Shown here piece after piece: positions 15,529 to 53,303 of a stretch of 64,000 nucleotides of DNA. A program made the position numbers and the translations under genes. Origin of the DNA: an uncultured Peptostreptococcaceae bacterium. Lineage in GTDB: Bacteria; Bacillota; Clostridia; Peptostreptococcales; BM714. The notes under the pieces were generated by a model. The model was not told where the DNA came from. It worked only from the letters and a program-made list of their open reading frames with translations, and made no database searches. Numbering within the stretch: position 1 is the stretch's first letter; the number at the start of each line of letters is the position of its first letter. The stretch is from the NCBI GenBank assembly GCA_964644525.1, contig CAZXWC010000001.1, positions 7,489 through 71,488 of the forward strand. Direction: 5' to 3'.

Positions 15529-15626
15529 TGGCGGGAACGTGTGGGAATCGAACCCACCCAGCGTACTACTAATACGCCGCAACTGGTTTTGAAGACCAGA
15601 GGGCACACCAGCACCCATCCGCTCCC
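15529..15626 (-). tRNA. selC: tRNA-Sec (anticodon UCA), 98 nt with encoded CCA
   Basis: Hand fold of the reverse complement GGGAGCGG..CUGGU-CUUCAAA-ACCAG..GUGGGUUCGAUUCCCAC..CCA. It has a 6-bp D-stem with a 4-nt loop, a UCA anticodon in a 7-nt loop, a long variable arm and an extended acceptor. It lies directly downstream of selB. Confidence 0.9.
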
Positions 15627-15704
15627 GTATTCATGACTCGATTCAAAATTATATCACAAGTGGATCGCTTTTGGAATATTATTTTTCCCTTTCTATCCAT
15701 TTAA

Positions 15705-17600
15705 TCAAAAAGGAATTCTTCTATTTCCGTCCCTCTTGGTTATTTTAGAGTTGTCATAATGCTCAAGCAAGGCAATCGCATATTTTCGCGATAAATTAAA
15801 AGCTTCCTTGAATTCTTTAAGGCTTATGAACCCTTGTTCCGTAAGTATTTCACGAACCTTTTCAAGTATTCTGTCGTATGTAGCCTTCGAATAGTACAAT
15901 TCCTCATCAACCTTTACAATCGCACCTTCCTGAAGCAAGTATTCGAAAACGGGCATTTCCTTTTTGCCTATTCCCAACCTTGCCTTTATTGTCGTGAAAT
16001 TGTCTGGTGTAAGGCCCGCCCCATCATAGTATTCAATCAATTTCCCGGCTAATTTTGAATCCTTTTCCCCCAATACTATTTTGAAGTTTTTAAGCCTTAC
16101 AACATGCCCTTCAGCTACTAAAGACCCGCCTGCAGTCATTTTTGAAAGAAGATGTTCAAATATATATCCATTTCTACCACCCAACAACTTATTTTTAAAT
16201 TCCTCTTTTGGGATGCCATTCCTGTATGGATTTCCCCTATGGTATTCATTTGCTATCCTAAGAGCCTTTTCCTCAACGGCCTCGAAACTTTGAACATGCA
16301 TGTATGATTCATTCATGCGGTATATGCACCCTTCATCAAGCAGTTCATATATGAATGACTCAACTTCATCCTTTTGTAATCCGGTGGACTTTTGAATTTC
16401 CTGCATGTCAATAAAATGCTCCGGAACACTTCTTATCAGCTGCTCGATTATGTCCTTCTTATTTCCCCCGCTCTTTAATTCCAGGGCATCAATAGTATCT
16501 TCATTGAATCTTTTATGTTTTCGGGGATTGGCGTCTATTACTTCCCCTCCACCAACAGTTTCAAGCGGAGAATAATACCTTACAACAAAATGATCTCCAT
16601 ACTTGAAAGCGTGTGTCTTCTCAAGCCTGAGTTGCGCGAAACATGTTTCTCCCGGTTCAAGAACTTCCCGATCGAGCAATACAAGTCGGCAAAGTATTTC
16701 AGCCGATCCATGGTAGAGTCTCAATCTAGTCCAGTTTTCCAATCTTCTTTTTTCATCTTTTGTAAGAGAAAGCTTTACGTCGAGCATCATGGTGTTTTCC
16801 ATCGAATCGATTTCGGCAATTACCTCTCCCCTGTACAATTCGTTTTTCTTAAGGCCCGCGATATTGAGGGCCGCTCTCTGTCCGGCATATACCCTGTCCA
16901 CATCTTCCCCGTGAACTTGTATGTTTCTTACCTTTGCCTTTTTCATGCTTGGATAAACAACAAGCATATCACTTTTTTTTATTGAACCCTCCATTAGCGT
17001 GCCAGTTATTATAGTTCCATAACCTGTAAGACTGAAAACCCTGTCAATAGGTATTCTAGCCGGCTTAGCATAATCTCTTTCCCCCACATACTCACTCATT
17101 TCATCAAGCTTTTCAACAAGGTTTCCTATTCCCCTGCCGCTTATTGAATCAACTTCCATAATCTTAGAATCCTCAAGGAGTGTCCCCTCAACCTGACTTG
17201 ACACATCTTCCTTTACCAGTTCCAGCCATTCCTGATCTACCATGTCGCATTTTGTAAGCACAATAAACCCTTTAGGTATGTCCAAAAAGCTGAGTATGTC
17301 CATATGTTCCTTTGTCTGAGGCATTATTCCCTCGTCCGCTGCGACAACAAGAACCACTATGTCCATTCCTATTACACCTGCAAGCATGTTCTTAATAAAC
17401 TTTTCATGCCCTGGGACATCAATTATGCCAGCTCTTTTGCCTCCGGGCAAATCAAAGTAAGTGAATCCCAAATCAATAGTGATTCCTCTTTTTTTCTCTT
17501 CTTGAAGACGATCGGTGTCTCTTCCTGTCATAGCTTTTATAAGGGTGGTTTTACCATGATCAATATGACCTGCCGTCCCTATTATGACATGCTTCATCAT
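15705..17600 (-). CDS. selB: Selenocysteine-specific translation elongation factor SelB
   Basis: 631 aa. GTPase N-terminus ([20 protein letters not shown]) plus a long winged-helix C-terminal extension. 4-nt overlap with selA. Confidence 0.92.
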
Positions 17601-19015
17601 ACATCAATCCCTTCTTTCAAGTTTCCAAACGCCTCTGCCACGTAATCGAATTGACTGTCTAGGATGGTTCTCACATCCAAAACTACTTTTTCATCATTTA
17701 TCCTTGCAATTACAGGCGGACTGTTCTTTCTCAAACCGCTTTCAATCCTGGACGATGAAAGTTTCCCGCTTCTTACGGACACCAAATGCGCGGGCAAGCT
17801 CTCAAGTGGCATGGAACCTCCTCCAACCTGTGATTGACCCTCTTCAACATAAACTTCAAAATCCGGGGCACTTCTTTTTATCATTTCAGCCAAGCTGGAC
17901 GCCCTGGACTTTAAAGAATCCGCCGATGCGGTTAAAAACTTCAATGTCGGTATATTTTCAAGCGCCTCTTCCTGATCAAGATAATGCCTGAAAGTCGCCT
18001 CGAGCCCGGCCAAAGTCATTTTATCCACCCTGAAGGCTCTTGTAAAAGGATTCTTTTTCATTTCGTCAAGATATTTCTTCTTGCCCACTATTATCCCTGC
18101 CTGGGGTCCACCGAGCATTTTATCCCCGCTGAAAGTAACAACATCAGCATAACGCACCGCTTCCTGAACTGTAGGTTCTCCCACCATTCCATATTTTGAA
18201 AAATCTATCAAAGTTCCGCTTCCTATATCTTCCAAAACTGGTATACCCGTTTTTTCGCCTGTTCCAGCCAATTCCCATACAGGAACTTCCTCTGTAAATC
18301 CGAGTATTCTGTAATTGCTTGTATGGACCTTTAGCAATACTCCGGTATTTTCGTTTATGTTTTCTTCATAATCCCTCAAGTGGGTCTTGTTGGTCGTCCC
18401 GACTTCTCTCAGTATGGCGCCGCTCTGCCTCATAACATCTGGAACTCTGAAGGAACCTCCTATTTCCACCAACTGTCCCCGTGATACTATCGCTTCCTTT
18501 CCTTCAGACAAGGTATTCAACGCAAGCAAAACAGCGGCCGCATTGTTGTTTACAACAAAAGCCGACTCAGCCCCGGTAATTTTACAAATTATCTCCTCAA
18601 TATGGCTGTACCTCAAGCCTCTCTTTCCGCATTTCAAATCGTATTCGAGAGTGGAATAGTTTGCAGCCACCTGCTTTATCCTATCAACGGCTTTTTCGCT
18701 CAATAGCGCCCTTCCAAGATTTGTATGCAAAACAACGCCCGTGCAATTTATGACTGGACGCAAATTGTACTCGCTTTTCCTTGCAATATTTTCTACTGCA
18801 CAGGACAAAATCTTTTCCCTCAAATCTTTAGCATTCGATTCCTCGATATTTCCTTCAATTATGTTTTTTCTGGCATTTTCGATAGCTTCCCTTATGGATT
18901 CCAACACCAAGGTCCTTGAAGTCACTAAAAGCTTTTCCTTTATAGCATCATTCCCCAAAAGATCGTCAACCTTGGGAAGGTATCTCAACAATGCATTCCG
19001 GTTCAAATTTATCAC
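17597..19015 (-). CDS. selA: L-seryl-tRNA(Sec) selenium transferase SelA
   Basis: About 470 aa. N-terminus ...NRNALLRYLPKVDDLL resembles SelA N-termini, and the PLP-lysine region FSGDKMLGGPQAG is present. The start is either GTG 19015 or, more likely, TTG 19006 behind GGGGTGAT. Confidence 0.9.
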   Translation of the reverse strand: MINLNRNALLRYLPKVDDLLGNDAIKEKLLVTSRTLVLESIREAIENARKNIIEGNIEESNAKDLREKILSCAVENIARKSEYNLRPVINCTGVVLHTNLGRALLSEKAVDRIKQVAANYSTLEYDLKCGKRGLRYSHIEEIICKITGAESAFVVNNNAAAVLLALNTLSEGKEAIVSRGQLVEIGGSFRVPDVMRQSGAILREVGTTNKTHLRDYEENINENTGVLLKVHTSNYRILGFTEEVPVWELAGTGEKTGIPVLEDIGSGTLIDFSKYGMVGEPTVQEAVRYADVVTFSGDKMLGGPQAGIIVGKKKYLDEMKKNPFTRAFRVDKMTLAGLEATFRHYLDQEEALENIPTLKFLTASADSLKSRASSLAEMIKRSAPDFEVYVEEGQSQVGGGSMPLESLPAHLVSVRSGKLSSSRIESGLRKNSPPVIARINDEKVVLDVRTILDSQFDYVAEAFGNLKEGIDV

Positions 19016-43412: not shown

Positions 43413-43452
43413 AAAAAAAGCGGAAGCGCCTACTGAAGCGCTTCCGCTTTTT
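43413..43452 (-). terminator. Rho-independent terminator of the rnf operon
   Basis: GCGGAAGCGC-N8-GCGCTTCCGC flanked by A7 and T5. Confidence 0.88.
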
Positions 43453-43456
43453 AATT

Positions 43457-44446
43457 CTATTTGAGTTTTATAGCATCTTTGGGGCATTTTTCAACACAAG
43501 CTCCGCAACCGATGCATTTTTCCACATCAACCTTATGGGGTTTTTTTACTTCTCCCTCAATGGCGTCAACCGGGCAAACTTTAGTACACAGGGTACAGCC
43601 AATGCAAGTTTCCTCGTCAATCTCAGCTTTCTTTCTGTTGTCTATGTTTCCTGCGATGGCACCTGTGGGACATTTTTCAACACAAATCATGCATTCCTTG
43701 CATTTTGTATAGTCAATAACAGCTAAATTGTCTACAACATGTATGGCGTCGAAAGGACAATTTTTTTCGCAAATCTTGCAGCCGATACAACCTACATCAC
43801 AAGATACCTTTACATTCTTGCCTTTATCCTTGCTATTGCAGTCAACTATTACTTCCTGCCCGTAAGGAACAAGTGTTATTACATTTTTAGGGCATGCCTC
43901 AATGCAATTTCCACAGGCTGTGCATTTATCATCAATGACTTCGGCTATGCCTTTGTCATTAATAAAAATTGCATCGAATGGACATACATCAACACAAGTG
44001 CCGAGTCCAAGACATCCGAATGAACAACTTTTACTTCCGCCATTTACTATATTGGCGGCTTTACAATCCTGTATTCCTATATATTCGTATTTTTCTTTTG
44101 CATTGTCACATGTTCCATTGCAAATGACATGAGCAACCATTTTTGTGCTGTCTTCAACAACAAGACCCATGATTTCAGCAATTTTTTCTGCTGTTTCCGT
44201 TCCGCCTACAGGGCATCCGTTTACCTTGGCTTCGCCTTTTGCCACAGCATTGGCAAAACCATCACACCCCGGATATCCGCATCCACCACAATTTGCACCC
44301 GGAAGAACTTCCCTTACAGCAACTGCCTTTGGGTCTATTTCAACTGCAAATTTCTGTGAAGCATAAGCCAAACCGGCTCCAAAAATCAATCCCATTCCAC
44401 CAAGGCTCAAGGTAGAATAAATCAAACCATTAATATTCATATTCAT
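43457..44446 (-). CDS. rnfB: Rnf complex subunit B (polyferredoxin type)
   Basis: N-terminal TM segment, an Fe-S module CGGCGYPGC...C, and six CxxCxxCxxxCP motifs. ATG 44446 lies behind an AGGAGA SD. Confidence 0.9.
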   Translation of the reverse strand: MNMNINGLIYSTLSLGGMGLIFGAGLAYASQKFAVEIDPKAVAVREVLPGANCGGCGYPGCDGFANAVAKGEAKVNGCPVGGTETAEKIAEIMGLVVEDSTKMVAHVICNGTCDNAKEKYEYIGIQDCKAANIVNGGSKSCSFGCLGLGTCVDVCPFDAIFINDKGIAEVIDDKCTACGNCIEACPKNVITLVPYGQEVIVDCNSKDKGKNVKVSCDVGCIGCKICEKNCPFDAIHVVDNLAVIDYTKCKECMICVEKCPTGAIAGNIDNRKKAEIDEETCIGCTLCTKVCPVDAIEGEVKKPHKVDVEKCIGCGACVEKCPKDAIKLK

Positions 44447-44458
44447 CACCCTCTCCTT

Positions 44459-45040
44459 TTAAACTAGTCCCGCAAAGCCTAAAAATGCCATAGACATAAG
44501 GCCTGCAGTGATCAGAGCGATTGGGAAACCTTTAAACGGAGCGGGCACATCCGAAATTGCAAGTCTTTCACGAATTCCGGCAAACAAGATGATTGCCAGG
44601 GAAAAACCTACCGCAGCGCCAAAGGAATGAAAAATCGTCTGGACGAAATTCAATTTATATTGTATGTTCAATAGCGCCAAACCAAGAACAGCACAGTTTG
44701 TAGTTATAAGCGGAAGATATACTCCCAATGCCTGATACAAAACCGGGCTCAATTTTTGAAGCACTATTTCAACAAATTGCACAAGCGCCGCAATTACCAG
44801 TATGAATGCGACAGTCTGCAAATATTCGATATGAAAAAAAACTAAAATGTACTTTTGTACTAGGTATGTAATCATACCCGCCAATGTTATTACAAATGTA
44901 ACGGCCATTCCCATTCCAGTCGCAGTTTCAACCTGTTTTGAAACTCCAAGAAAAGGGCAGATTCCCAAAAATTTCGACATGACGAAGTTGTTTACGAGAA
45001 TCGAACTGACCAGGATAACGAAGATACTAGCGTTTTCCAT
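44459..45040 (-). CDS. rnfA: Rnf complex subunit A
   Basis: 193 aa polytopic protein with the RnfA/NqrE-like FLGICPFLG motif. Confidence 0.9.
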
Positions 45041-45052
45041 TTCAATCCCCCC

Positions 45053-45649
45053 TTATGACAAACTTTTTTTGGTTTTGACAACATTATAAAGAGCCAACAA
45101 AATACCAAGTGCGATGAAGGCTCCCGGAGGAAGTATCATCATCAGAGCCGGTTTGTATGCAAACGGAAGCTGCCATCCAAACAAACTTCCAGCTCCCAGC
45201 AATTCTCTCACAGCTCCCAATACTGTCAGTGCCAATGTAAATCCAAGTCCCATTCCCAAACCGTCGAAAATGGAATCGATTACTGTATTCTTTGATGCAA
45301 AAGCCTCGGCTCTTGCAAGTATTATGCAGTTAACCACAATAAGAGGAATAAAAAGACCCAAAGCCTTGAACAGTGATGGCAGATATCCTTCCATCAGCAT
45401 TCCGACAATCGTAACAAAACTGGCAATTACAACTATAAAGGCCGGTATTCTGATTTTACTCGGTATTATTTTCCTCATCATTGAAATAGCCGCATTGGAA
45501 GCAACCAATACCGCGGTGGCCGCCAAACCCATTCCAACTCCATTTATAGCCGATGTTGTAACCGCCAGAGTTGGACACATGCCTAATAATTGCACGAATA
45601 TAGGATTTTCATCCAATAGTCCATTCTTGAAAATTTTCATTAAATTCAA
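45053..45649 (-). CDS. rnfE: Rnf complex subunit E
   Basis: 198 aa polytopic protein with LLGMCPTLAVT. TTG start 6 nt after GGAGGTGA. Confidence 0.9.
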   Translation of the reverse strand: MNLMKIFKNGLLDENPIFVQLLGMCPTLAVTTSAINGVGMGLAATAVLVASNAAISMMRKIIPSKIRIPAFIVVIASFVTIVGMLMEGYLPSLFKALGLFIPLIVVNCIILARAEAFASKNTVIDSIFDGLGMGLGFTLALTVLGAVRELLGAGSLFGWQLPFAYKPALMMILPPGAFIALGILLALYNVVKTKKSLS

Positions 45650-45669
45650 TATAATTCACCTCCGGAAAG

Positions 45670-46245
45670 TTACAGGCCCGAAACGATCTTGTAAGCTTCA
45701 ACAGCCATGTTGACGCCTTCCGTGACCGCTTTGGACGTTATGGTAGCTCCGGAAATTGCCTGTATTTCATTTCCGGCGGCTCCCGCTTTGACAACCGTCA
45801 ATTCAGATTCAGTGCTTTTACCAGCATACTGCCCGTAAAATTCAGGCAATAGCGCATTGGCTCCCAGGCCCGGTGTCTCCTGATGGTTGCCTACTCTCAT
45901 TCCGGTAATAGTCCCATCCCCCGAGATTCCTGTAATAACCTCAACACTTCCGCCGAATCCGCCCGGCAAGGACTTGACTGTATAACCAACCAATGTGTCT
46001 CCTGAAAGTCCTTCGTAAATCTCGACAACCAGCTCATTTTCAGCCTTTACTTTGTCTATCATATCGGCTTCTATCATTTCAAAAGACTCCGCTTCAGGCA
46101 AGACTTCCTGTCTGGACAATTGGCTTGTCAGTTCCCTTTGCTCAACAATCTTGTCGATGGTGAAATCATAAACAAGAGAAAGCAATCCTGCCGCAACGGC
46201 GCATATTAAAAGTAGAATCAATCCTAATTTGCTGATTTCTTTCAT
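45670..46245 (-). CDS. rnfG: Rnf complex subunit G (FMN-binding)
   Basis: Signal anchor plus an FMN attachment motif (SGATITS). Confidence 0.88.
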   Translation of the reverse strand: MKEISKLGLILLLICAVAAGLLSLVYDFTIDKIVEQRELTSQLSRQEVLPEAESFEMIEADMIDKVKAENELVVEIYEGLSGDTLVGYTVKSLPGGFGGSVEVITGISGDGTITGMRVGNHQETPGLGANALLPEFYGQYAGKSTESELTVVKAGAAGNEIQAISGATITSKAVTEGVNMAVEAYKIVSGL

Positions 46246-47183
46246 TATTTTTTCACACCTCCGAACACATTGGATTTGACATACTTGTCAATCAAAGGCG
46301 TAACAACATTCATGAAGAGAATGGAGAAAGACACGCCTCCTGGGTATCCTCCAAACAATCTGATCACTACTGTGATCAAACCGCATCCAACAGCATATAT
46401 GATCTGCCCCTTTGCCGTCATTGGAGATGACACATAGTCAGTGGCCATGAAAATAGCTCCCAATACGAGTCCTCCGGCAAGCAGATGGAACATCATGTAA
46501 TTGAAATCAAACCCTCCGTAAAGCAATGTCAAAACAGCCACGGTCCCCATGTATGCAAGGGGGATTCTTGGGCTTATCACTCCGCGATATACAAGATAAA
46601 TTCCACCAATCAAAAGGGCCAGTGCCGAAACTTCACCTATGCATCCTCCAACTCTACCTATGAAAAGATTGAAAATGGAAACGCTTTCAGGCACAATCCT
46701 GCTACCCTTTATAAGTGCAAGTGGAGTTGCCTCTGTCACTGCATCGACAGGAAACTTCCATGTAGTCATCTCAACCGGCCATGAAGCTATTAGAAAAACC
46801 CTTGCTGCCAAAGCTGGATTGATAAAGTTGTGTCCCAAACCTCCGAAGGCCTGTTTAGCAATTGCAATTGCAAAAACCGAACCTACTACCGGCATCCAGA
46901 AAGGAACTTCTGGCGGAAGGTTAAGTGCCAGCAAGAGTCCTGTTACTGCCGCACTGTAATCCATTACGGTAATGGCTTGTTTCCTTATGTTTTGTATGAC
47001 TGCTTCCGTCGCCATAGCCGCCGCAACAGACAGCAATACGACAATCAAAGTCTGAAATCCGAAGTAATACATTCCTGCAAGAGTTGCGGGAATAAGAGCT
47101 ATTACAACATCTCTCATTGTTTTATCAGTCGCTTCCTTCGACCTTATATGAGGCGATGAAGTGACTATTAATTTTCTTTCCAT
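46245..47183 (-). CDS. rnfD: Rnf complex subunit D
   Basis: MERKLIVTSSPHIRS... polytopic NqrB/RnfD-like protein. ATG 47183 lies behind AGGAGGG; the ORF-track start at 47309 overlaps rnfC. Confidence 0.9.
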   Translation of the reverse strand: MERKLIVTSSPHIRSKEATDKTMRDVVIALIPATLAGMYYFGFQTLIVVLLSVAAAMATEAVIQNIRKQAITVMDYSAAVTGLLLALNLPPEVPFWMPVVGSVFAIAIAKQAFGGLGHNFINPALAARVFLIASWPVEMTTWKFPVDAVTEATPLALIKGSRIVPESVSIFNLFIGRVGGCIGEVSALALLIGGIYLVYRGVISPRIPLAYMGTVAVLTLLYGGFDFNYMMFHLLAGGLVLGAIFMATDYVSSPMTAKGQIIYAVGCGLITVVIRLFGGYPGGVSFSILFMNVVTPLIDKYVKSNVFGGVKK

Positions 47184-47197
47184 CTTTACCCTCCTGT

Positions 47198-48520
47198 TTA
47201 TTTTGTTTTCCTTCGTTTTGAAAGTATTTCCCTTTTGGCCATTCTTATAGAATGTAGCAATGGCCGTTTCGAAGGACAAATGAAAGAACACGAACCGCAC
47301 TCTATGCAATCCATGGCACTATTCTTTTCAGCCATATCAAACATTCCGTTCAATGAATATGCGCTGATTGCAAACGGTTGTATGAATGAAGGGCATATAT
47401 CTACGCACTTGCCACATCTTATGCAAGGATTAGGTTCAGGTAATCTTGCCTGTTCTTCCGTAAATACCAATACTCCTGAAGTAGTCTTGTTTGAGGGCAA
47501 GTCATCTGTGAATTGAGCAAAACCCATCATGGGACCTCCAAGAATCAGTTTGCCCGGTTCACCTTTGTATCCTCCAGCTTGAGCAATGATTTCACTGATT
47601 CTGGTTCCATTTTTTATCATTATGTTTTTGGGTTCTGAAATCCCGTCACCTGTAACGGTGCATATCCTTTCGATGAGCGGCATTCCAGTCTTGATTGCCT
47701 TTGATATAGCCGACATTGTTGCAACATTGCTCACAACTGCGCCTGCATCCATTGGAAGGGCTCCAGACGGAACTTCTCTTTTTGAACACGCGTAAATCAA
47801 TTGTTTCTCAGATCCTTGTGGATACTTGGTTTTTACAATCACAACCTGAATCCCGGGAAACTCCTTTGCAGCCTCTTTCATTGAAAGGACAGCATCCATC
47901 TTGTTGTTTTCAATGGCTATAAATGCTTTTTCAAGACCCAAAACTTTCATTACGGTTCTTAATCCATAAACAACATCTTCCGGATTCTCAAGCATCAGAC
48001 GATGGTCGGATGTCAAGTACGGCTCGCATTCCGCTCCATTTAAAATAAGTACGTCTATCTTCTTATCCGGAGGAGGCGATAATTTAACCCTGGTTGGGAA
48101 ACCTGCTCCTCCCATTCCGACAATTCCAGCTTCATTGATTATATCGAGTATTTCTTTAGCCTCAAGCGTCTCTATATCCCCCTTGGGAACAACGCTCTCA
48201 TGGACTTCATTCAATCCGTCGGATTCAATTACAATACAAGTCCCAGTCCCGTTAATAATCATCCTTTTTTCAATTTTCTTTACCGTACCGGAAATGCTGC
48301 TATGAACTGGCGCAGATACAAATCCGCCCGCTTCACCAATTTTCTGCCCAACCTTGACTTTTTCGCCAACTTCCACAATTGCCTTGCAAGGTGCGCCGAT
48401 GTGTTGCTGAAGGGGAATTACTACGATTTCAGGTTCCAAAGCTTTCTCCACCGGTAAATGTTCTGTCATTTCTTTACTGTGTGGAGGATGAATGCCTCCC
48501 CTGAATGATAAAAGATTCAT
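47198..48520 (-). CDS. rnfC: Rnf complex subunit C
   Basis: 440 aa: MNLLSFRGGIHPPH..., an NADH/FMN-binding GMGGAGFP motif, and two 4Fe-4S motifs (CIRCGKCVDICP, CIECGSCSFICP). Confidence 0.93.
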   Translation of the reverse strand: MNLLSFRGGIHPPHSKEMTEHLPVEKALEPEIVVIPLQQHIGAPCKAIVEVGEKVKVGQKIGEAGGFVSAPVHSSISGTVKKIEKRMIINGTGTCIVIESDGLNEVHESVVPKGDIETLEAKEILDIINEAGIVGMGGAGFPTRVKLSPPPDKKIDVLILNGAECEPYLTSDHRLMLENPEDVVYGLRTVMKVLGLEKAFIAIENNKMDAVLSMKEAAKEFPGIQVVIVKTKYPQGSEKQLIYACSKREVPSGALPMDAGAVVSNVATMSAISKAIKTGMPLIERICTVTGDGISEPKNIMIKNGTRISEIIAQAGGYKGEPGKLILGGPMMGFAQFTDDLPSNKTTSGVLVFTEEQARLPEPNPCIRCGKCVDICPSFIQPFAISAYSLNGMFDMAEKNSAMDCIECGSCSFICPSKRPLLHSIRMAKREILSKRRKTK

Positions 48521-48561
48521 TGTTACTCACCCCTTTATAAATAGTCGTCACATTTATATTC

Positions 48562-48567
48562 ATTATA
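48562..48567 (-). promoter_or_regulatory. Candidate -10 box (TATAAT) upstream of rnfC
   Basis: TATAAT on the minus strand about 40 nt upstream of the rnfC ATG. The -35 region is weak (TTATAT). Confidence 0.4.
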
Positions 48568-48712
48568 CCGCCAAACAAGTTGCAATATAACTAATACCAT
48601 GCGATCAAAAAAACACAAAAAAAAAACATATAGTCCATTAACATAGTATCTTTAAAGGATTTTAAAGTCAATCATTGTTAATTGCGTAACGAAAAACAAA
48701 AACAATTTTAAT

Positions 48713-49255
48713 TCACTGTTTTATTTTTTCTAGGCCTTCTTTTACGTGGTCTCTTATCCAACAAATAACATCGTTATTGTTCAAAGGTACATCGCCCAAT
48801 ACTTTTTTTATTTCCCTTGTGTCCAAAGTAAAGCATTTTTCGCCCACATTATGACTGTATATGAAATCGACGTTTATATCCGATATAACAACGGTAACCA
48901 CAGTATCTACAATATTGCCGAGAGGCGCGCGGTCTATATGGTCATATCTGAATGATGCTTCAAGTTCCGTTCCTTTTCCTGCTTCCGATCTCATGTTGAA
49001 CTTCCCATCACAATTTTCTGCTGCGGATTTAAGCATTGGAATCCCCAATCCGACTTTTCTTGTAGTCCTGCTGGTGTAAAAAGGATTAATCACTTTTTTC
49101 AGAGTTTCCTCATCCATGCCTTTTCCGTCATCTTTTATGCGTATTGAAAAAATATTCTTCTCTATGTTTTCACAAATCTCGATTTCAACCAGTTTTGAAT
49201 CGGCATGAACCGAATTTTGAGCTATATCCAATATATGCATCGACAATTCTTTCAT
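48713..49255 (-). CDS. GHKL-type ATP-binding protein (HATPase_c only, 180 aa), cassette gene 6
   Basis: N box HILDIAQNS, G1 DDGKGM and G2 GLGIPM. No HisKA, DHp or TM region. The start overlaps the PHP stop (TAATG). Confidence 0.8.
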   Translation of the reverse strand: MKELSMHILDIAQNSVHADSKLVEIEICENIEKNIFSIRIKDDGKGMDEETLKKVINPFYTSRTTRKVGLGIPMLKSAAENCDGKFNMRSEAGKGTELEASFRYDHIDRAPLGNIVDTVVTVVISDINVDFIYSHNVGEKCFTLDTREIKKVLGDVPLNNNDVICWIRDHVKEGLEKIKQ

Positions 49256-49983
49256 TATGATTCCCCCTCGTTGCTTTTTCTCAAAGCTTTGAATATGTTT
49301 TCAATGTTTTTTTCATCAACTTCCAAGTAATTGTCGCACTCCGAAATATCGTGAAGATAATGGGCATCCGAATTTAAAAGAAAGCGGTAGTTTTTATACA
49401 TCGGGTTCTTCTCTTTAAATTTCTCTTGACTTGTCTTTTTAGAAAGCTCCAATGCATCAACCTTCAAGTCGGGTGGCAAAAAGCCAAGATTGGCAATCAG
49501 GCTGAAGGCCTTTCTGTCGATGTGAGCTGGTACTGCAATCCCTTTGTGCCTATGCGCCAATTCAACCAATGCATAAATATTTAAATCTATCGAATGTATC
49601 AAGAGGCGTTTTTCCACACCTGTCAACTCGTCATTCTCGTCTAATATCAATTGCCTGCCCAAAAGTTCTTCGGAATTCGGAATCCATTCAAAGTGCCTCT
49701 TGAGTTCATCCTCAAACATTTTTACGCTATCAATCGTTTCAAACAAACAAAGGACATGCACTTCCTCTTTCGTCTGTACTTCCATTCCCGGAACCACTAT
49801 GATTCCATTTCTTCGGCCCAAGGTCATGCAGGCTTGGCAATTTGCAGCATTGTTGTGGTCTGTTACCGCAATCGCATCAAGCCCCTTCAAAAGAGACATA
49901 TTTATTATGTTGTTAGGAGTCATATCCTCGTCTCCACACGGTGACAAAGCAGAATGAATATGAAAATCATAATAAAGCTTCAT
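49255..49983 (-). CDS. PHP-domain phosphoesterase, cassette gene 5
   Basis: MKLYYDFHIHSALSPCGD...VTDHN...SDAHY (PHP metal-binding His/Asp pattern). ATG 49983 overlaps the upstream stop (TAATG); the ORF-track start at 50043 is an extension. Confidence 0.8.
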   Translation of the reverse strand: MKLYYDFHIHSALSPCGDEDMTPNNIINMSLLKGLDAIAVTDHNNAANCQACMTLGRRNGIIVVPGMEVQTKEEVHVLCLFETIDSVKMFEDELKRHFEWIPNSEELLGRQLILDENDELTGVEKRLLIHSIDLNIYALVELAHRHKGIAVPAHIDRKAFSLIANLGFLPPDLKVDALELSKKTSQEKFKEKNPMYKNYRFLLNSDAHYLHDISECDNYLEVDEKNIENIFKALRKSNEGES

Positions 49984-50315
49984 TACATTCCCAGCTCTTT
50001 GAGTTTGCATGCCAATGTAAAGCTGTCTAGTTCCGAAGTGCAAACAACAATATTTTCTTCGTCCGCTTTAGCCAAGGTATCCTCCTCCACTTCAATGGAT
50101 TCAGGCACTATTATCATGGGCATCTCAAGAAGCGATGCAACAGCAATTATGTTCAGGTGTGTCTGAACGGTAATCCAAATATCGCCTTTGCTGCCGTTAG
50201 CCATTACCCAACTCAAAAGATCGCAAATGTAAACTCCGTCAACGGTTTTTGTTGAATCTTTTTCACCACTGGCTTGCTCCAATTTCAATTCCTCAATAAT
50301 CTCATTGATGATCAT
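49983..50315 (-). CDS. DRTGG-domain protein B (110 aa), cassette gene 4
   Basis: Paralogous to the 118-aa protein at 52026..52382 (CDLLSWVMA vs CDLMSDVLA; LNIIAVASLLEMPMIIV vs LQVIRTAEMLDLSNIVF). 14-nt overlap with the upstream gene. Confidence 0.7.
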   Translation of the reverse strand: MIINEIIEELKLEQASGEKDSTKTVDGVYICDLLSWVMANGSKGDIWITVQTHLNIIAVASLLEMPMIIVPESIEVEEDTLAKADEENIVVCTSELDSFTLACKLKELGM

Positions 50316-51576
50316 TTTCAGCCTCCTGTCCTTTTCTTATTATGCAATCGTCTATTGAAGCCTCTCCGCGTACAATATCCTCCGCCAAAGCTCTGCAACT
50401 TGGGGCTCCACATGTTCCGCAATCTATTCCCGGCAATTGCTTGTATATCTTTTCTATCATATCCATCTTGTTGATTGCAACACGTATGTCCGAATCCAAT
50501 TTCATTACATTTTTGGGTTTGATGTCGTCTACCCAATCTTTCATTTCTAAATTGATTTTTTCAATTGCTTTTTCCTTATTTATCACTTCTATTTGACTCT
50601 CTCCGATTTCTTCAGAAATACGTCTGATTCTCGCTTTTGCAATAAATGAATTTTCCATTGTAAGCGGACCTCCTATGCACCCGTTTACACATGCATAGCC
50701 CTCGAAAAAATCAACATCGTTAAGCTTCCCGAGTTCCATTCCCTCCAAAACTTCAATTACATTTTCTATGCCGTCAACAGCAAGATAATTTTTGGCTTTT
50801 ATGCTGAAACTTTGTCCATTCGCTTTTGCCCACCCGATTCCAACACTTGATGAATTCTGTACCTGCTTTCTTATCTCGACATCAGGATAAATCTTCAAAA
50901 TCTTTGAGTACACCGATTCTATTGAAATGGCTTTGTCGACATATGACTTCCTTATTCCAACCGGATTCTTGATGCTTGTTATCTTGGCTGGGCACTCTGT
51001 TACGTAAAATGTCCCTATGTCCTCCATAGCAAGTCCGGTTTTTTCTACAGCTTCACGTTTTGCAAACCTTGCAGCTATTTCCATTGGCGTTTCAAGTTTG
51101 ATTATCCTATCTATCAGTGAAGGAAATCTTATTTGAATAAGCCTTATTATCGCAGGGCAGAGTGTCGAAATAAGCGGGCCGTCTTTTTCTTTTTTCTCCA
51201 ATCTGTCTTTCAATGCTATGGATAGATAGTCAGCGGCCTTTGCCACATCATAAACCTCATCGAAGCCCAAATCATAAAATGAATTAAATATTTTATTGAT
51301 TTTTTTGCTCAAATGAAACTGTCCATAAATAGGAATTGAAACCAGCGCTATATTGTATTTGTAGTTTTTCATATCCGACAATTCATCCGTCAGCGCCCTT
51401 TTCGCATGGTATGGGCATACTCTTATGCACTCACCACAATCTATGCAGCGTTCATTTATAATTTCCGCTTTCCCGTTTCGCAAACGTATTGCCTCTGTAG
51501 GACATCTTTTCAAACAATTAGTGCATCCGTTGCACTTTGTTATATCCAAATTGACTGAATGCCAATAATTTTCCAT
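50302..51576 (-). CDS. [FeFe]-hydrogenase-like Fe-S protein (2x4Fe-4S ferredoxin N-terminus, Fe_hyd_lg_C-like core, C-terminal RnfB-type Fe-S module), putative sensor, cassette gene 3
   Basis: CNGCTNCLKRCP and CIDCGECIRVCP at the N-terminus. H-cluster-like motifs STLCPAI, VTECPAK and ACVNGCIGGP. C-terminal CGTCGAPSC...C. ATG 51576 lies 7 nt after GGAGGGAA. Confidence 0.8.
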   Translation of the reverse strand: MENYWHSVNLDITKCNGCTNCLKRCPTEAIRLRNGKAEIINERCIDCGECIRVCPYHAKRALTDELSDMKNYKYNIALVSIPIYGQFHLSKKINKIFNSFYDLGFDEVYDVAKAADYLSIALKDRLEKKEKDGPLISTLCPAIIRLIQIRFPSLIDRIIKLETPMEIAARFAKREAVEKTGLAMEDIGTFYVTECPAKITSIKNPVGIRKSYVDKAISIESVYSKILKIYPDVEIRKQVQNSSSVGIGWAKANGQSFSIKAKNYLAVDGIENVIEVLEGMELGKLNDVDFFEGYACVNGCIGGPLTMENSFIAKARIRRISEEIGESQIEVINKEKAIEKINLEMKDWVDDIKPKNVMKLDSDIRVAINKMDMIEKIYKQLPGIDCGTCGAPSCRALAEDIVRGEASIDDCIIRKGQEAENDHQ

Positions 51577-51589
51577 CAAATTCCCTCCA

Positions 51590-52021
51590 TCAAATATTAA
51601 AAATCATTTCCACTTTCGTTTCCGCTCCCTTGGAAGATTCAATACTGAATTGGTCACTTGTTCTTTTCATGTTAGGCAATCCCATACCAGCTCCAAAACC
51701 CATTTCTCGCGCTTCATTGGAAGCCGTGGAAAATCCTTTCTTCATAGCCTTTTCAAGATTTTCAATTCCATTGCCATTATCATGGGCTATTACAATTATT
51801 TTATCGTGTGAGATTTCTGTTGTGATTTTACCTCCTTCAGAATGAATCACTATGTTTATTTCTGACTCGTAAGCCGCTATTGCAATCCTTCTTACCACAG
51901 ACGCTTCGATACCTATTTGATTTAGCACTTTTTTGATATTGCTTGAAGCAAGGCCTGCCTTGGAAAACTCCTCTTTACCCACCTCATATTCAAGTTTTAT
52001 AGTCTTTTCCGATTCAACCAT
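51590..52021 (-). CDS. RsbW/SpoIIAB-like anti-sigma-type serine kinase fold (GHKL ATPase, 143 aa), cassette gene 2
   Basis: ESEINIVIHS (N box-like), HDNGNGI (G1) and GFGAGMGLPN (G2). AAGGGGAA SD. Confidence 0.75.
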   Translation of the reverse strand: MVESEKTIKLEYEVGKEEFSKAGLASSNIKKVLNQIGIEASVVRRIAIAAYESEINIVIHSEGGKITTEISHDKIIVIAHDNGNGIENLEKAMKKGFSTASNEAREMGFGAGMGLPNMKRTSDQFSIESSKGAETKVEMIFNI

Positions 52022-52025
52022 ATGA

Positions 52026-52382
52026 TTATTCCCCTTCTATTTTTATTGCGCCAAGTCTGCTCTTGTAAAGTAAACCGCTTGCTTCAAATAAAGTATGCCT
52101 GACTCTCATTAAAACCATCTTCTTTTCTTTTGCCAATTTGCACACATCATCATCCGGATTTTTCCCTCTTACAAATACAATGTTGGACAAATCGAGCATT
52201 TCCGCAGTCCTTATTACCTGTAAATTAGTAAGGCCTGTCAGAAGAAGGACCTTTTCATCCACAAAAGCCAATACATCGCTCATCAAATCACATGAGAAAG
52301 CCGCTTCAACTTCCCTGTCCATATACTCTTCTCCTGCCAGTATTTCAGCATCAAGTATTTCTTTTACTTCTCTAAGTAACAT
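52026..52382 (-). CDS. DRTGG-domain protein A (118 aa), cassette gene 1
   Basis: VLLLTGLTNLQVIRTAEML core. Paralog of 49983..50315. AAAGGGGAA SD. Sits 12 nt after the upstream gene. Confidence 0.7.
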   Translation of the reverse strand: MLLREVKEILDAEILAGEEYMDREVEAAFSCDLMSDVLAFVDEKVLLLTGLTNLQVIRTAEMLDLSNIVFVRGKNPDDDVCKLAKEKKMVLMRVRHTLFEASGLLYKSRLGAIKIEGE

Positions 52383-52394
52383 CGCAATTCCCCT

Positions 52395-53303
52395 TTAACT
52401 AACATTTCTAATTCCATTTATAAAAATATCCGACAAGTCGTTAATGCCTTCTTGCTTTTCCATTTCTGGAATTTTAGCCAGAACTGCTATTGACGATTCA
52501 TACCAATCTATTAAACCTGGAAAAAACACGCCTCCCGAATCAAAATCCTCAAGCCTTTTTTTCATGCTTTCCAGCTCATTCAACTTCATTGAGCTTGTTT
52601 CAACCAGTTCTTCCCTAGACAAGTTTGATTTCAAATATGCCACATAATCAGATTGCGCTTCACCAATTATTGAAAGAGCCCTCTCGTAATCATTTATGCA
52701 TCCAATCGCTTTTTTCTCTTTTTCCGACTCGTAAGTAAATTCAGTTGTCTTTTCAACACTGTACAAAAAAGCGTCGTCTGCAATATTCTTTGCATCTTTT
52801 TTAAAATATTCCCCCAGAGTGCTGTCTGCGTAAACGAAATTCAAAACCTTGAAGTTTTTATCCTCTAAAATAGTACCGCGTTCTCCTTTTTTCTCCAATT
52901 CCAGCAAAAACTTTTCCGCGTTTTCCCTAGTCGAAAAACTGCCTAATTGATAGGCATATAAGTTTACACTGACTTGCTTGAACTTCACCTCAGACTGTTT
53001 GCTTACATCTTCAGAATCCGTTTGCAAGGGTTTCGCAGTATCAACTTCTTCAATTTCTTCAAATGGTTTTTTAATCATGTCCGAAACTTCCGTTGCTTGT
53101 TCTTCGTCATCTCCAGAATTTGTAATTTCTTCTCCTGTCTCTTCGGCTGGATTGAGATTTTCGCTTCCCAAAAGCATAAATTTAACTCCGTAAAAACCAA
53201 GCAATGCCGAAATTAAACATAAAAACAAAATTGAAAAAATAAACCTTCCTCTTCTGCTTCTTTTCTTTCTTTTGCTTGTTTTACTTTTATATCTTTGAGC
53301 CAT
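52395..53303 (-). CDS. Membrane-anchored protein with SPOR-like domain (302 aa)
   Basis: Basic N-terminus, one TM segment, an acidic linker, then YAYQLGSFSTRENAEKFLLELEKKG (SPOR-like signature). The C-terminal half is unassigned. Confidence 0.55.
   Translation of the reverse strand: MAQRYKSKTSKRKKRSRRGRFIFSILFLCLISALLGFYGVKFMLLGSENLNPAEETGEEITNSGDDEEQATEVSDMIKKPFEEIEEVDTAKPLQTDSEDVSKQSEVKFKQVSVNLYAYQLGSFSTRENAEKFLLELEKKGERGTILEDKNFKVLNFVYADSTLGEYFKKDAKNIADDAFLYSVEKTTEFTYESEKEKKAIGCINDYERALSIIGEAQSDYVAYLKSNLSREELVETSSMKLNELESMKKRLEDFDSGGVFFPGLIDWYESSIAVLAKIPEMEKQEGINDLSDIFINGIRNVS

What the first reader, a model, noticed from the sequence alone, without database searches (positions are those of the whole stretch)
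48713..52382. Six-gene DRTGG / GHKL-ATPase / hydrogenase-like Fe-S / PHP cassette placed directly upstream of rnfCDGEAB: candidate redox or H2 sensing system with no recognisable output domain
Six minus-strand genes are packed with gaps of 4 and 13 nt and overlaps of 14, 1 and 1 nt, which implies translational coupling. In order they are: DRTGG-A (52026-52382), an RsbW-like GHKL protein (51590-52021), a [FeFe]-hydrogenase-like Fe-S protein (50302-51576), DRTGG-B (49983-50315), a PHP phosphoesterase (49255-49983) and a second HATPase-only protein (48713-49255). None of the six shows a HisKA/DHp, receiver, STAS, sigma-factor, HTH or transmembrane element, so neither the classic two-component nor the classic partner-switching scheme is complete. 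The cassette ends 192 nt before rnfC, on the same strand. From memory, similar gene sets are annotated next to multimeric [FeFe]-hydrogenase (NuoE/NuoF-type) operons in thermophilic Clostridia, and I know of no defined mechanism for them. Here the neighbouring energy-conservation module is Rnf, and no catalytic hydrogenase is in the window. I infer a ferredoxin/NADH or H2-responsive post-translational switch acting on Rnf or on redox metabolism.
Basis: partly seen in the sequence, partly recalled or inferred. Interest (0 to 1): 0.8.

Follow-up and report, generated by a model that had tools for sequence, protein, structure and literature searches.

The report
Hydrogen-sensor signalling cassette upstream of Rnf
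Six tightly packed genes encode a putative hydrogen-sensing hydrogenase and five signalling partners; this set normally sits beside a hydrogen-producing enzyme but here, as in several related bacteria, sits directly in front of the Rnf energy-conserving complex.

Summary
In detail: coordinates, spacings and every domain call hold. The "hydrogenase-like Fe-S protein" is a Group D (M2e) putative sensory [FeFe]-hydrogenase. It is at least 44% identical to the characterised TamHydS and shares its diagnostic motifs. Its signalling route is an open question in the literature.

A census of about 170 loci shows a collinear core: DRTGG-A, RsbT/SpoIIAB-like GHKL, HydS, DRTGG-B, PHP. It is complete in 64 of 70 species loci with enough flank. 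DRTGG-B and PHP always co-occur. DRTGG-A is often fused to the GHKL protein (at least 120 clusters) and once to HydS.

The sixth gene (HATP2) has a MutL-like ATPase fold. It lies immediately upstream of hydD-hydB in 93 loci and of rnfC in 18, out of 129 informative loci. No transcription factor, sigma factor, receiver or STAS protein is co-conserved.

The cassette-rnf layout recurs in Caminicella, Caloranaerobacter and Wukongibacter. In Crassaminicella and Natronincola it persists without HydS.

Best reading: a modular cytoplasmic kinase/phosphoesterase switch with H2 as an exchangeable input, acting on NuoF-type ferredoxin/NADH complexes, here Rnf. The mechanism is inferred. I class it as a new variant of a known kind.

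The parts
52026..52382 (-). DrA: stand-alone DRTGG-domain protein (118 aa), partner of the GHKL kinase-like protein and of HydS
   Evidence: Pfam DRTGG 8.9e-7. The AF2 model (pLDDT 89.8) matches AF1212 2ioj at TM 0.82, the CBS-PPase DRTGG domain at 0.73 and the HPrK/P N-domain at 0.63, with no STAS hit. Invariant residues are D32, M34, S35, D36, G50, R58, T59, R72, G73, K74 and P76. Natural fusions exist to GHKL1 (P0333, P0361 and at least 120 clusters) and to HydS (P0286).
51590..52021 (-). GHKL1: RsbT/SpoIIAB-like HATPase_c_2 protein (143 aa), a putative Ser/Thr protein kinase
   Evidence: HATPase_c 2.4e-8 and HATPase_c_2 7.6e-8. NCBIfam SpoIIAB 6e-13 and RsbW 5e-5, both below cut-off. The N-box (E52, N56, H60), G1 (D81xGxG) and G2 (GFGAGMGL) motifs are invariant. 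It is adjacent to DrA in 110 loci. In HydS-less variants it is fused to a CBS pair.
50302..51576 (-). HydS: Group D (M2e) putative sensory [FeFe]-hydrogenase (424 aa)
   Evidence: Fer4 x2, Fe_hyd_lg_C and PF04060. The motifs are L1 TLCPA (C299 to Leu), L2 TECPAK (M353 to Thr), L3 EGYACVNGCIGGP, and a C-terminal Cx2Cx4Cx16C; all are conserved in 76 orthologues. It is at least 44% identical over its full length to TamHydS. No PAS domain was found. More than 8000 homologues exist.
49983..50315 (-). DrB: second stand-alone DRTGG-domain protein (110 aa), obligate neighbour of PHP
   Evidence: DRTGG 9.1e-5 and Hpr_kinase_N 1.8e-3. It falls in the same BLAST cluster as DrA. DrB and PHP co-occur in 70 of 70 loci, with none having only one of them, and the median gap is 11 nt. 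Conserved residues are D32, L33, L34, S35, T49 and N55.
49255..49983 (-). PHP-family metal-dependent phosphoesterase (242 aa)
   Evidence: PHP 1.2e-7. The metal ligands HxH (H28, H30), D62-H63, E88, H174 and D226xH228 are invariant. The nearest named relatives are the TrlF N-domain, CehA/McbA, pAp phosphatase and EndoQ. The substrate is unknown.
48713..49255 (-). HATP2: 180-aa ATP-binding GHKL protein with a C-terminal alpha/beta sub-domain; it travels with hydD-hydB or rnfC
   Evidence: HATPase_c 1.1e-13 and HATPase_c_3 3.7e-10. The AF2 model has pLDDT 89.8. The best PDB matches are MutL N-terminal domains (TMq 0.60 over about 200 columns); histidine-kinase CA domains align over only about 100 columns. 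The next gene is hydD in 93 loci, rnfC in 18 and something else in 18.
48521..48712 (-). Intergenic region with the rnf promoter (TTGACT-17-TACTAT, 48671-48643) and a Rex-operator-like box (48675-48692)
   Evidence: Promoter scan. The promoter and box are conserved in L001 and L081, and partly in Caminicella. No terminator-like site lies in the gap. The Rex-like box has 2 mismatches and is 1 of 3 matches in the window, against 0.87 expected.
43457..48520 (-). rnfCDGEAB operon (RnfC 47198-48520, D 46245-47309 or shorter, G 45670-46245, E 45053-45649, A 44459-45040, B 43457-44449), the candidate target
   Evidence: Pfam RnfC_N+Complex1_51K+SLBB, NQR2_RnfD_RnfE, FMN_bind, Rnf-Nqr x2, and FeS+Fer4 x6. 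A strong bidirectional terminator lies at 43415-43452.

Best explanation
The six genes encode a soluble, modular signalling device built around a Group D (M2e) putative H2-sensing [FeFe]-hydrogenase.

Shown by sequence and comparative evidence:
- HydS keeps all H-cluster ligands and the Group D signature.
- DrA+GHKL1 form one unit and are frequently fused.
- DrA also contacts HydS, as shown by a fusion.
- DrB+PHP form a second obligate unit.
- HATP2, a small GHL-type ATPase, is almost always encoded directly in front of the gene for a NuoF-type NADH/FMN module: hydD-hydB of the bifurcating hydrogenase, or rnfC.
- No DNA-binding protein is co-conserved.

Inferred:
- HydS reports the H2 partial pressure, or the redox state coupled to it, to the RsbT/SpoIIAB-like kinase through DrA.
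- The kinase and the PHP phosphoesterase act antagonistically. They are probably held together by a DrA-DrB DRTGG heterodimer and work on a protein or nucleotide substrate.
- HATP2 relays the state to the target enzyme complex post-translationally.
- In this organism and its relatives the target is Rnf. High H2 would then shift reduced-ferredoxin oxidation from H2 production towards Rnf-dependent NAD+ reduction and ion pumping.
- HydS is an exchangeable input. It is absent in some rnf-linked cassettes and replaced by a CBS pair on the kinase in others.
For: Identity of HydS: with literature.

Block conservation: the five-gene core is present in 64 of 70 loci, and DrB-PHP co-occur 70 to 0.

Physical coupling: DrA-GHKL1 fusions occur in at least 120 clusters across several phyla, and one DrA-HydS fusion exists.

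HATP2 linkage: 93 loci are followed by hydD and 18 by rnfC, out of 129 informative loci.

Rnf link:
- The same SPOR-cassette-rnf layout occurs in a MAG at 85% identity, Caminicella sporogenes (63%), Caloranaerobacter azorensis (56%) and Wukongibacter.
- HydS-less cassettes still sit in front of rnf in Crassaminicella, Natronincola, L104 and L119.
- HATP2 alone sits in front of rnfC in L101 and L109.
- Two other arrangements were found: cassette-hyd-rnf (L052, L097) and rnf-3 genes-cassette in Acutalibacteraceae (L045, L064, L065).

No conserved transcription factor, sigma factor or response regulator: after the Hyd subunits, the next commonest neighbouring gene cluster occurs in only 9 of 80 loci and is groESL synteny.

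Catalytic motifs are intact in GHKL1, HATP2 and PHP. A CBS-GHKL1 variant with an adjacent Rex gene shows an alternative input.
Against: - There is no experimental evidence for phosphorylation, for any complex, or for an effect on Rnf.
- rnf has its own conserved promoter, and the HATP2-rnfC gap is always at least 185 nt. For hydD the median gap is 25 nt. The rnf linkage is therefore looser than the hyd linkage.
- Most rnf-adjacent cases share the flanking synteny (SPOR ... DUF4321-maf-radC-mreB), so part of the recurrence is common descent.
- 10 of 41 fully flanked loci have neither hyd nor rnf nearby.
- The PHP protein's nearest named relatives are nucleases or nucleotide phosphatases, not protein phosphatases.
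- HATP2 looks like a MutL-type ATPase, so a kinase role for it is doubtful.
- In TamHydS the C-terminal cluster does not respond to H2 (PMC13104023), so how a signal leaves HydS is unknown.
- Whether this genome carries hydEFG maturases or hydABC elsewhere could not be checked.
Confidence: 0.45

Rival explanations
1. The sensor module is the same, but the output is transcriptional through an unlinked factor. GHKL1 would act as an anti-sigma factor or kinase in a non-canonical partner switch: the DRTGG proteins replace STAS, and PHP replaces PP2C. It would control an alternative sigma factor, or Rex, encoded elsewhere, and that factor would regulate the hyd and rnf promoters.
For: GHKL1's best named relatives are SpoIIAB and RsbW/RsbT. 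rnf has its own promoter, overlapped by a Rex-operator-like box that is conserved in close relatives. A Rex gene lies directly upstream of a HydS-less cassette in L147. The literature proposes HydS to kinase/phosphatase to Rex for Group C systems.
Against: No sigma factor, and no Rex apart from L147, is co-conserved in about 170 loci. No STAS fold was found. The Rex-like box is not statistically significant on its own: 3 matches against 0.87 expected, and 8 of 100 shuffles do as well. This model does not explain HATP2's embedding between hydC and hydD.
Confidence: 0.25
2. The position next to rnf is a relic of synteny. The cassette regulates a HydABC hydrogenase encoded elsewhere in the genome. 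hydCDBA was deleted or translocated from an ancestral cassette-hyd-rnf arrangement, leaving HATP2 behind.
For: L097 has cassette-hydC-HATP2-hydD-hydB-hydA-1.1 kb-rnf, and L052 has the same without hydA. In Helicovermis, L084 and Acidaminobacter the six-gene cassette lies a few genes from hydCDBA with no rnf nearby. Most rnf-adjacent loci share flanking synteny. HydABC is the majority partner, present in 28 of 41 loci.
Against: Cassettes that have lost HydS, and even HATP2 alone in a different upstream context (pdxS), are still kept directly in front of rnfC. rnf adjacency also arose in a different geometry in Acutalibacteraceae. HATP2-rnfC pairs fall into at least 7 clusters at 62% identity.
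Confidence: 0.2
3. The proteins are not signalling parts. They are assembly, maturation or electron-input factors for NuoF-type Fe-S flavoprotein complexes. HATP2 would be an Hsp90/MutL-like ATP-driven chaperone, PHP a cofactor-processing phosphoesterase, and HydS a slow hydrogenase feeding electrons through its RnfB-like PF04060 domain.
For: HATP2's fold is closest to the MutL, GRP94 and TopoVI-B ATPases. HydS's C-terminal domain is the same Pfam family as the RnfB N-terminus. HATP2 sits inside hyd structural operons.
Against: TamHydS has low turnover and sensor-like properties, and its C-terminal cluster is not reduced by H2. Purified and structurally solved HydABC enzymes do not need these proteins as subunits (from my own knowledge of the published HydABC structures; I did not check this in the papers read here). 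An RsbT/SpoIIAB-like kinase and CBS-input variants point to signalling.
Confidence: 0.08

Closest known systems
Group D (M2e) putative sensory [FeFe]-hydrogenase loci, e.g. Thermoanaerobacter mathranii TamHydS, C. thermocellum Cthe_0335, Caldicellulosiruptor Csac_1857/Athe_1292 (Land 2020 PMC8163306; Carere 2012 PMC3561251)
   Same: Same HydS architecture and motifs, at least 44% identity to TamHydS, and a neighbouring His/Ser-kinase-like ATPase. The same DRTGG/GHKL/PHP neighbours are found across Clostridia.
   Different: In the literature the cluster sits upstream of the trimeric bifurcating HydABC. Here the downstream operon is rnfCDGEAB and no hydrogenase is within 64 kb. The open-access papers I could search do not discuss the DRTGG and PHP partners, the fusions or the HydS-less forms.
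Group C (M2f) HydS systems: T. maritima HydS, R. albus HydS, Thermoanaerobacterium hfsABCD
   Same: A hydrogenase-derived H2 sensor next to a bifurcating hydrogenase, with Ser/Thr kinase and phosphatase partners. There is genetic evidence for a regulatory role over fermentation products.
   Different: Group C proteins carry a PAS domain. As recalled from the literature rather than tested here, they use PP2C-type phosphatases. This cassette has no PAS domain, uses a PHP phosphoesterase and has two DRTGG proteins.
RsbW/RsbT/SpoIIAB partner-switching modules
   Same: A small HATPase_c_2 kinase-like protein with intact ATP-binding motifs, paired with a small alpha/beta partner protein and a phosphoesterase.
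   Different: The partner has a DRTGG fold rather than STAS. The phosphoesterase is PHP rather than PP2C. No sigma factor is linked.
Regulatory region of CBS-domain family II pyrophosphatases (CBS-DRTGG-CBS, PDB 3l31/3l2b) and the HPr kinase/phosphorylase N-domain
   Same: The DrA model superposes on these DRTGG domains at TM 0.73 and 0.63. In these proteins a DRTGG domain is joined to a phospho-transfer or hydrolysis enzyme and, in cassette variants, to CBS domains.
   Different: Here the DRTGG domains are free-standing and occur as two paralogues. The canonical DR and TGG residues are replaced: LTGLT and RGK in DrA, ITVQT and VPES in DrB.
[NiFe] regulatory hydrogenase HoxBC-HoxJ-HoxA of Cupriavidus necator
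   Same: The concept of a low-activity hydrogenase used as an H2 sensor that controls hydrogen metabolism.
   Different: It is an unrelated protein family. Its output is a classical histidine kinase and response regulator acting on transcription.

Membership tests
Group D (M2e) [FeFe]-hydrogenase (HydS) | N-terminal 2x[4Fe-4S] ferredoxin domain plus an H-domain with the four H-cluster cysteine ligands (CpI C300, C355, C499, C503) | tested here: met
   Fer4 families and Fe_hyd_lg_C 2.3e-27. C141, C196, C297 and C301 are invariant in 76 orthologues.
Group D (M2e) [FeFe]-hydrogenase (HydS) | Proton-relay Cys299 not conserved; Met353 replaced by Ser or Thr | tested here: met
   L1 is TLCPA (Leu) and L2 is TECPAK (Thr). 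The criterion comes from Land 2020.
Group D (M2e) [FeFe]-hydrogenase (HydS) | C-terminal Cx2Cx4Cx16C cluster motif and no PAS domain | tested here: met
   DCGTCGAPSCRALAEDIVRGEASIDDC; PF04060 5.8e-15; no PAS hit.
Group D (M2e) [FeFe]-hydrogenase (HydS) | Sequence relationship to the characterised member TamHydS | tested here: met
   At least 44% identity across the full length against the OCR-damaged TamHydS coding sequence from the PMC13104023 supplement.
Group D (M2e) [FeFe]-hydrogenase (HydS) | Binds an H-cluster and reacts with H2 at low turnover | not testable with these tools
   This needs expression, maturation with [2Fe]adt or HydEFG, and FTIR/EPR. The presence of hydEFG in the source genome could not be checked.
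Group D (M2e) [FeFe]-hydrogenase (HydS) | Typical genomic position upstream of a trimeric or tetrameric bifurcating HydABC | tested here: not met
   No NuoE, HydB or HydA homologue in the window. rnfCDGEAB follows instead.
Partner-switching module (RsbW/SpoIIAB type) | HATPase_c_2 kinase / anti-sigma protein | tested here: inconclusive
   HATPase_c_2 7.6e-8 passes the Pfam cut-off. SpoIIAB (48.8 bits against 135) and RsbW (22.9 against 145) are far below the NCBIfam cut-offs.
Partner-switching module (RsbW/SpoIIAB type) | STAS-domain antagonist, PP2C phosphatase and a linked sigma factor | tested here: not met
   No STAS, PP2C or sigma hit. DrA has a DRTGG fold with no STAS match. No sigma-factor cluster appears in the 80 species loci whose genes were clustered.
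Two-component system | HisKA/DHp phospho-acceptor histidine and a receiver domain | tested here: not met
   No HisKA or Response_reg hit. The H-box-like HIDRAPL of HATP2 has His in only 32 of 49 family members.
GHL ATPases (MutL / TopoVI-B / Hsp90 type), for HATP2 | Bergerat ATP-binding fold followed by a second (transducer-like) domain | tested here: inconclusive
   N-box, G1 and G2 motifs are invariant. Foldseek's best hits are MutL N-terminal domains, but only at TMq 0.60 and rmsd about 5 A. No catalytic lysine was assigned.
DRTGG domain (PF07085) | DRTGG alpha/beta fold | tested here: met
   Pfam 8.9e-7 for DrA. The model matches 2ioj at TM 0.82. DrB at 22.7 bits is just below the 25.2 cut-off but is homologous to DrA.
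Rnf complex | Six subunits, rnfC, D, G, E, A and B, in one operon | tested here: met
   There is a terminator after rnfB.

The most novel reading that the evidence does not exclude
DRTGG-A/GHKL1, DRTGG-B/PHP and HATP2 form a previously unrecognised and widespread post-translational control system for NuoF-type flavin/Fe-S ferredoxin-NAD(H) machines, namely the bifurcating HydABC and Rnf. Its sensor inputs are interchangeable: Group D HydS for H2, CBS pairs for adenylates, or none. In this architecture DRTGG domains take the place of STAS and PHP takes the place of PP2C. The window would be a case where H2 sensing is wired directly to Rnf, which would give the first concrete signalling route for Group D hydrogenases.
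Probability: 0.3. Interest if true: 0.8.

Novelty: new variant of a known kind. Interest (0 to 1): 0.62.

Why it matters
How fermentative anaerobes sense H2 and re-route reduced ferredoxin and NADH is an acknowledged open question. Land et al. 2020 ask how signal transduction is achieved. A 2024 Cell paper still lists Group D as functionally undefined.

The comparative picture found here turns that question into specific experiments. Its elements are:
- a fixed set of partners;
- natural fusions that name the interacting pairs;
- a GHL-type ATPase tied to hydD-hydB or rnfC;
- cassettes that keep working partners but lose the sensor.

These define which proteins to co-purify, which residues to mutate (DrA/DrB Ser35, and the GHKL1 and HATP2 ATP sites), and which cultured organisms carry the Rnf-linked form: Caminicella sporogenes, Caloranaerobacter azorensis and Wukongibacter baidiensis.

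If the module does control Rnf, it links H2 partial pressure to ion-gradient formation and product spectrum. That is relevant to syntrophy, gut and rumen H2 economy, and the engineering of ethanol- or H2-producing Clostridia.

Tried and rejected
1. A hidden histidine-kinase H-box in HATP2 (H106-IDRAPL resembles HELRTPL). Rejected: His is present in only 32 of 49 family members.
2. DRTGG proteins as disguised STAS domains. Rejected: the fold search returns only DRTGG, HPrK-N and Mur-ligase N-domains.
3. A conserved transcription factor, sigma factor or response regulator in the neighbourhood. None found: clustering all ORFs of the 80 species loci gives only Hyd subunits and groESL synteny. Genes following truncated cassettes are unrelated: rotamase, CN-hydrolase, racemase, AP endonuclease, GyrB.
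4. A riboswitch or known RNA between the cassette and rnf. Rfam shows nothing relevant.
5. A Rex operator at the rnf promoter. A 2-mismatch box overlaps the -35 and is conserved in close relatives, but it is not significant by itself. I keep it only as a lead.
6. HydABC remnants in the window. None found.
7. Solved structures of close relatives of any of the five non-hydrogenase proteins. None found by sequence.
8. Apparent DRTGG 'fusions' to Peptidase_M3, ArgJ and ABC_tran. These are single truncated predictions, probably chimeric calls, and I did not use them.
9. Literature on DRTGG or PHP with hydrogenases or rnf. Nothing relevant.
10. Modelling complexes. The structure tool returns no coordinates and accepts only restricted single chains, so interfaces could not be examined.

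Full report
OBSERVATION.
- DrA: 52026-52382
- GHKL1: 51590-52021
- HydS: 50302-51576
- DrB: 49983-50315
- PHP: 49255-49983
- HATP2: 48713-49255

The spacings are +4 and +13 nt, then overlaps of 14, 1 and 1 nt. A 192-nt gap separates HATP2 from rnfC (47198-48520). Each start has a Shine-Dalgarno-like motif. Pfam and NCBIfam confirm every domain call and find no HisKA, receiver, STAS, sigma, HTH or PAS domain. None of the six proteins has a transmembrane-like segment. rnfCDGEAB is complete. The window holds no NuoE, HydB or HydA homologue. The surrounding region is core housekeeping sequence: relA-dtd-MBL-hemZ upstream, then maf-radC-mreBC, PBP2, leuS and selAB downstream.

WHAT THE CENTRAL PROTEIN IS. 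The 424-aa Fe-S protein has two N-terminal [4Fe-4S] motifs and an H-domain with all four H-cluster cysteines. It lacks the proton-relay cysteine (TSCCP becomes TLCP). Met353 is replaced by Thr (TECPAK) and Met497 by Tyr. It has a C-terminal Cx2Cx4Cx16C motif (PF04060) and no PAS domain. This is the published signature of the M2e / Group D [FeFe]-hydrogenases (Land et al. 2020). A tblastn against the TamHydS coding sequence printed in the supplement of PMC13104023 gives at least 44% identity over the whole length, despite OCR frame errors.

The literature calls these enzymes putative H2 sensors. The reasons are their low turnover, CO tolerance and high H2 affinity, and their position upstream of bifurcating HydABC, often separated from it by a histidine/serine kinase. 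The literature also states that the signalling route is unknown. Group D is still listed as functionally undefined in 2024. The C-terminal cluster does not respond to H2.

CENSUS ANCHORED ON HydS. I examined 80 GTDB species-representative loci at 45-94% identity, mostly with 10-kb flanks.
- DrA is present in 73 of 74 loci with enough upstream flank, and GHKL1 in 72 of 74.
- DrB and PHP are each present in 70 of 76 loci with enough downstream flank. They always occur together (70 with both, 0 with one).
- The collinear five-gene core is complete in 64 of 70 loci.
- The usual continuation is hydC(NuoE)-HATP2-hydD-hydB-hydA, either directly downstream or divergently upstream. Of 41 fully flanked loci, 28 carry HydB, 4 carry rnf and 10 carry neither.
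- After the Hyd subunits, the most frequent neighbouring gene cluster occurs in only 9 of 80 loci and is groESL synteny. No transcription factor, sigma factor or response regulator is co-conserved.

SUB-MODULES AND FUSIONS. An exhaustive profile-free search with DrA found longer proteins. Among them:
- P0333 and P0361 are clean DrA-GHKL1 fusions.
- P0286 is a DrA-HydS fusion.

Searching with P0333 shows that the DrA-GHKL1 fusion is common. All of the best 120 clusters are 261-289 aa. They come from Thermovenabulum, Thermosediminibacter, Caldanaerovirga, Thermoanaerobacterales, Aminicenantales and Desulfobacterota, and sources often name them RsbT or anti-sigma regulatory factor. I conclude that DrA, GHKL1 and HydS work in physical contact, and that DrB and PHP form a second obligate pair.

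The DrA AF2 model (pLDDT 89.8) has a DRTGG fold. It matches AF1212 at TM 0.82, the CBS-pyrophosphatase regulatory region at 0.73 and the HPr kinase N-domain at 0.63. It is not STAS. Both DRTGG paralogues keep a D-L-[LM]-S35 motif. DrA additionally has invariant R58, R72, G73 and K74, which replace the canonical TGG. GHKL1, HATP2 and PHP all keep their nucleotide- or metal-binding residues.

HATP2. The AF2 model (pLDDT 89.8) shows a Bergerat fold followed by an alpha/beta sub-domain. The best PDB matches are MutL N-terminal domains, TopoVI-B and GRP94, aligned over about 200 columns. Histidine-kinase CA domains align over only about 100 columns. An H-box-like HIDRAPL motif is not conserved across the family. 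HATP2 is therefore more likely an ATP-driven switch or clamp than a kinase.

A second census anchored on HATP2 used 80 metagenome loci plus the earlier ones. It covers 144 loci with HATP2. The next gene is hydD in 93, rnfC in 18, something else in 18, and the contig ends in 15. The gap to hydD has a median of 25 nt. The gap to rnfC is always at least 185 nt (median 236).

THE Rnf LINK. The window's exact layout is SPOR-like gene, six-gene cassette, rnfCDGEAB, DUF4321-maf-radC-mreB. It recurs in:
- MAGs at 94% and 85% identity (L001, L081);
- Caminicella sporogenes (63%);
- Caloranaerobacter azorensis (56%);
- Wukongibacter baidiensis.

The same layout occurs without HydS in Crassaminicella indica, Natronincola peptidivorans and two metagenome contigs. 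In L101 and L109, HATP2 alone precedes rnfC in a different upstream context (pdxS).

Two other geometries exist. One is cassette-hydC-HATP2-hydD-hydB(-hydA)-rnf, in L097 and L052. The other is rnfCDGEAB-three genes-cassette, in Acutalibacteraceae (L045, L064, L065). HATP2-rnfC pairs fall into at least 7 clusters at 62% identity.

In other HydS-less cassettes the kinase carries an N-terminal CBS pair (L147, confirmed by Pfam). From the extra roughly 450-550 nt, I infer the same for L121, L135 and L144. In L147 a Rex gene lies directly upstream.

Together these results indicate that HydS is an exchangeable input. They also indicate that the remaining proteins have a function tied to HydABC or to Rnf. 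Both complexes contain a NuoF-type NADH/FMN subunit (HydB or RnfC).

TRANSCRIPTION SIGNALS. The 192-nt gap contains a sigma-70-type promoter, TTGACT-17-TACTAT (48671-48643). It is conserved in close relatives and recognisable in Caminicella. No terminator-like site separates HATP2 from rnfC. A strong terminator follows rnfB. A Rex-operator-like box (48675-48692, 2 mismatches) overlaps the -35. It is conserved in close relatives but is not significant on its own. Rfam finds nothing relevant. rnf is thus probably transcribed from its own promoter, with possible read-through from the cassette.

INTERPRETATION. Three things are shown:
- the identity of HydS as a Group D member;
- a conserved modular partner set with fusion-supported contacts;
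- a non-random association of HATP2 and the cassette with hydD-hydB or rnfC.

The rest is inferred. It is an H2-responsive (or, in variants, adenylate-responsive) kinase/phosphoesterase switch that acts post-translationally through HATP2 on the NuoF-type module. In this organism that would shift reduced-ferredoxin oxidation between H2 formation and Rnf. I give this composite reading a probability of about 0.45.

The main rivals are:
- transcriptional output through an unlinked sigma factor or Rex (0.25);
- a purely historical position next to rnf, with HydABC elsewhere as the real target (0.2);
- an assembly or electron-input role (0.08).

COMPARISON AND NOVELTY. The hydrogenase is an ordinary member of a known, biochemically sampled group, and its clustering with kinase-like genes next to HydABC is published. 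Four things were absent from the open-access literature I could search:
- the defined five-plus-one gene module with two DRTGG proteins and a PHP enzyme;
- the widespread DrA-GHKL fusion;
- the HydS-less and CBS variants;
- the recurrent wiring to rnf.

I therefore rate the finding a new variant of a known kind, with moderate-to-high interest. It makes the open question of Group D signal transduction experimentally approachable and suggests H2-dependent control of Rnf.

LIMITS. No expression, interaction or activity data exist. The two censuses are capped at 80 loci each and biased towards relatives of the query. Part of the rnf recurrence is shared ancestry. The rest of the source genome, including hydEFG and hydABC, could not be inspected.

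Noticed in passing
window 52395-53303 (-): A 302-aa single-pass membrane protein with a weak SPOR domain ends 12 nt before DrA. The same gene precedes the cassette in Caminicella, Caloranaerobacter, Wukongibacter, Crassaminicella, Natronincola and L119. One database protein (P0292, 389 aa) is a SPOR-DrA fusion or a merged gene call. It may belong to the same transcript.
   Followed up: partly
window 48675-48692: A Rex-operator-like inverted repeat (TTGTTAATTGCGTAACGA, 2 mismatches to TTGTTAAN4TTAACAA) overlaps the -35 of the rnf promoter and is conserved in L001, L081 and L089-L091. Only 3 such matches occur in the window, against 0.87 expected. Similar boxes are enriched in HATP2-rnfC spacers, but these are AT-rich and partly redundant.
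   Followed up: partly
L086 6120-8567 (Crassaminicella indica) and L088 5789-8546 (Natronincola peptidivorans): The cassette sits upstream of rnfCDGEAB without HydS. In L086 the GHKL1 and DrB genes abut. In L088 a 210-nt gap remains where HydS would be.
   Followed up: yes
L147 5762-9552; also L121, L135, L144: A HydS-less cassette in which the GHKL kinase-like protein carries an N-terminal CBS pair (289 aa). In L147 a Rex-family repressor gene lies directly upstream, and DUF4321-maf-radC follow HATP2 with no rnf in between.
   Followed up: partly
L052 11880-20589 and L097: L052 has cassette-hydC-HATP2-hydD-hydB followed after about 510 nt by rnfCDGEAB, with no hydA. L097 has the full hydCDBA and then rnf after 1.1 kb. 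These may be intermediates between the hyd-linked and rnf-linked layouts.
   Followed up: partly
L101 8992-11109 and L109 8992-11129: HATP2 alone lies directly upstream of rnfC and is preceded by pdxS and a GntR-aminotransferase gene. No DRTGG, GHKL1, PHP or HydS gene lies within 9 kb upstream.
   Followed up: partly
L015 7954-11037 and L023 12677-15796: A roughly 1030-aa 7TM-GAF-GGDEF-EAL protein is encoded immediately after PHP in two species. This could be a c-di-GMP link or simple coincidence.
   Followed up: no
window 15529-19015: tRNA-Sec (anticodon tca) lies next to selB (15705-17600) and selA (17597-19015), so the organism uses selenocysteine.
   Followed up: no
window 43415-43452: A strong bidirectional intrinsic terminator (15-bp stem, 8 GC pairs) lies 5 nt after rnfB. 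It marks the end of any transcript that starts at the cassette or at the rnf promoter.
   Followed up: no
window 48600-48630 (-): A long T-rich run (TTTTTTTTTTGTGTTTTTTT) sits in the rnf 5' leader downstream of the promoter and is conserved in L001. In Caloranaerobacter the equivalent position holds a GC hairpin followed by Ts (attenuator-like).
   Followed up: no
window 7962-10013 (-): An Eco57I-type restriction-modification methylase with a TaqI-like specificity domain lies in an otherwise housekeeping region.
   Followed up: no
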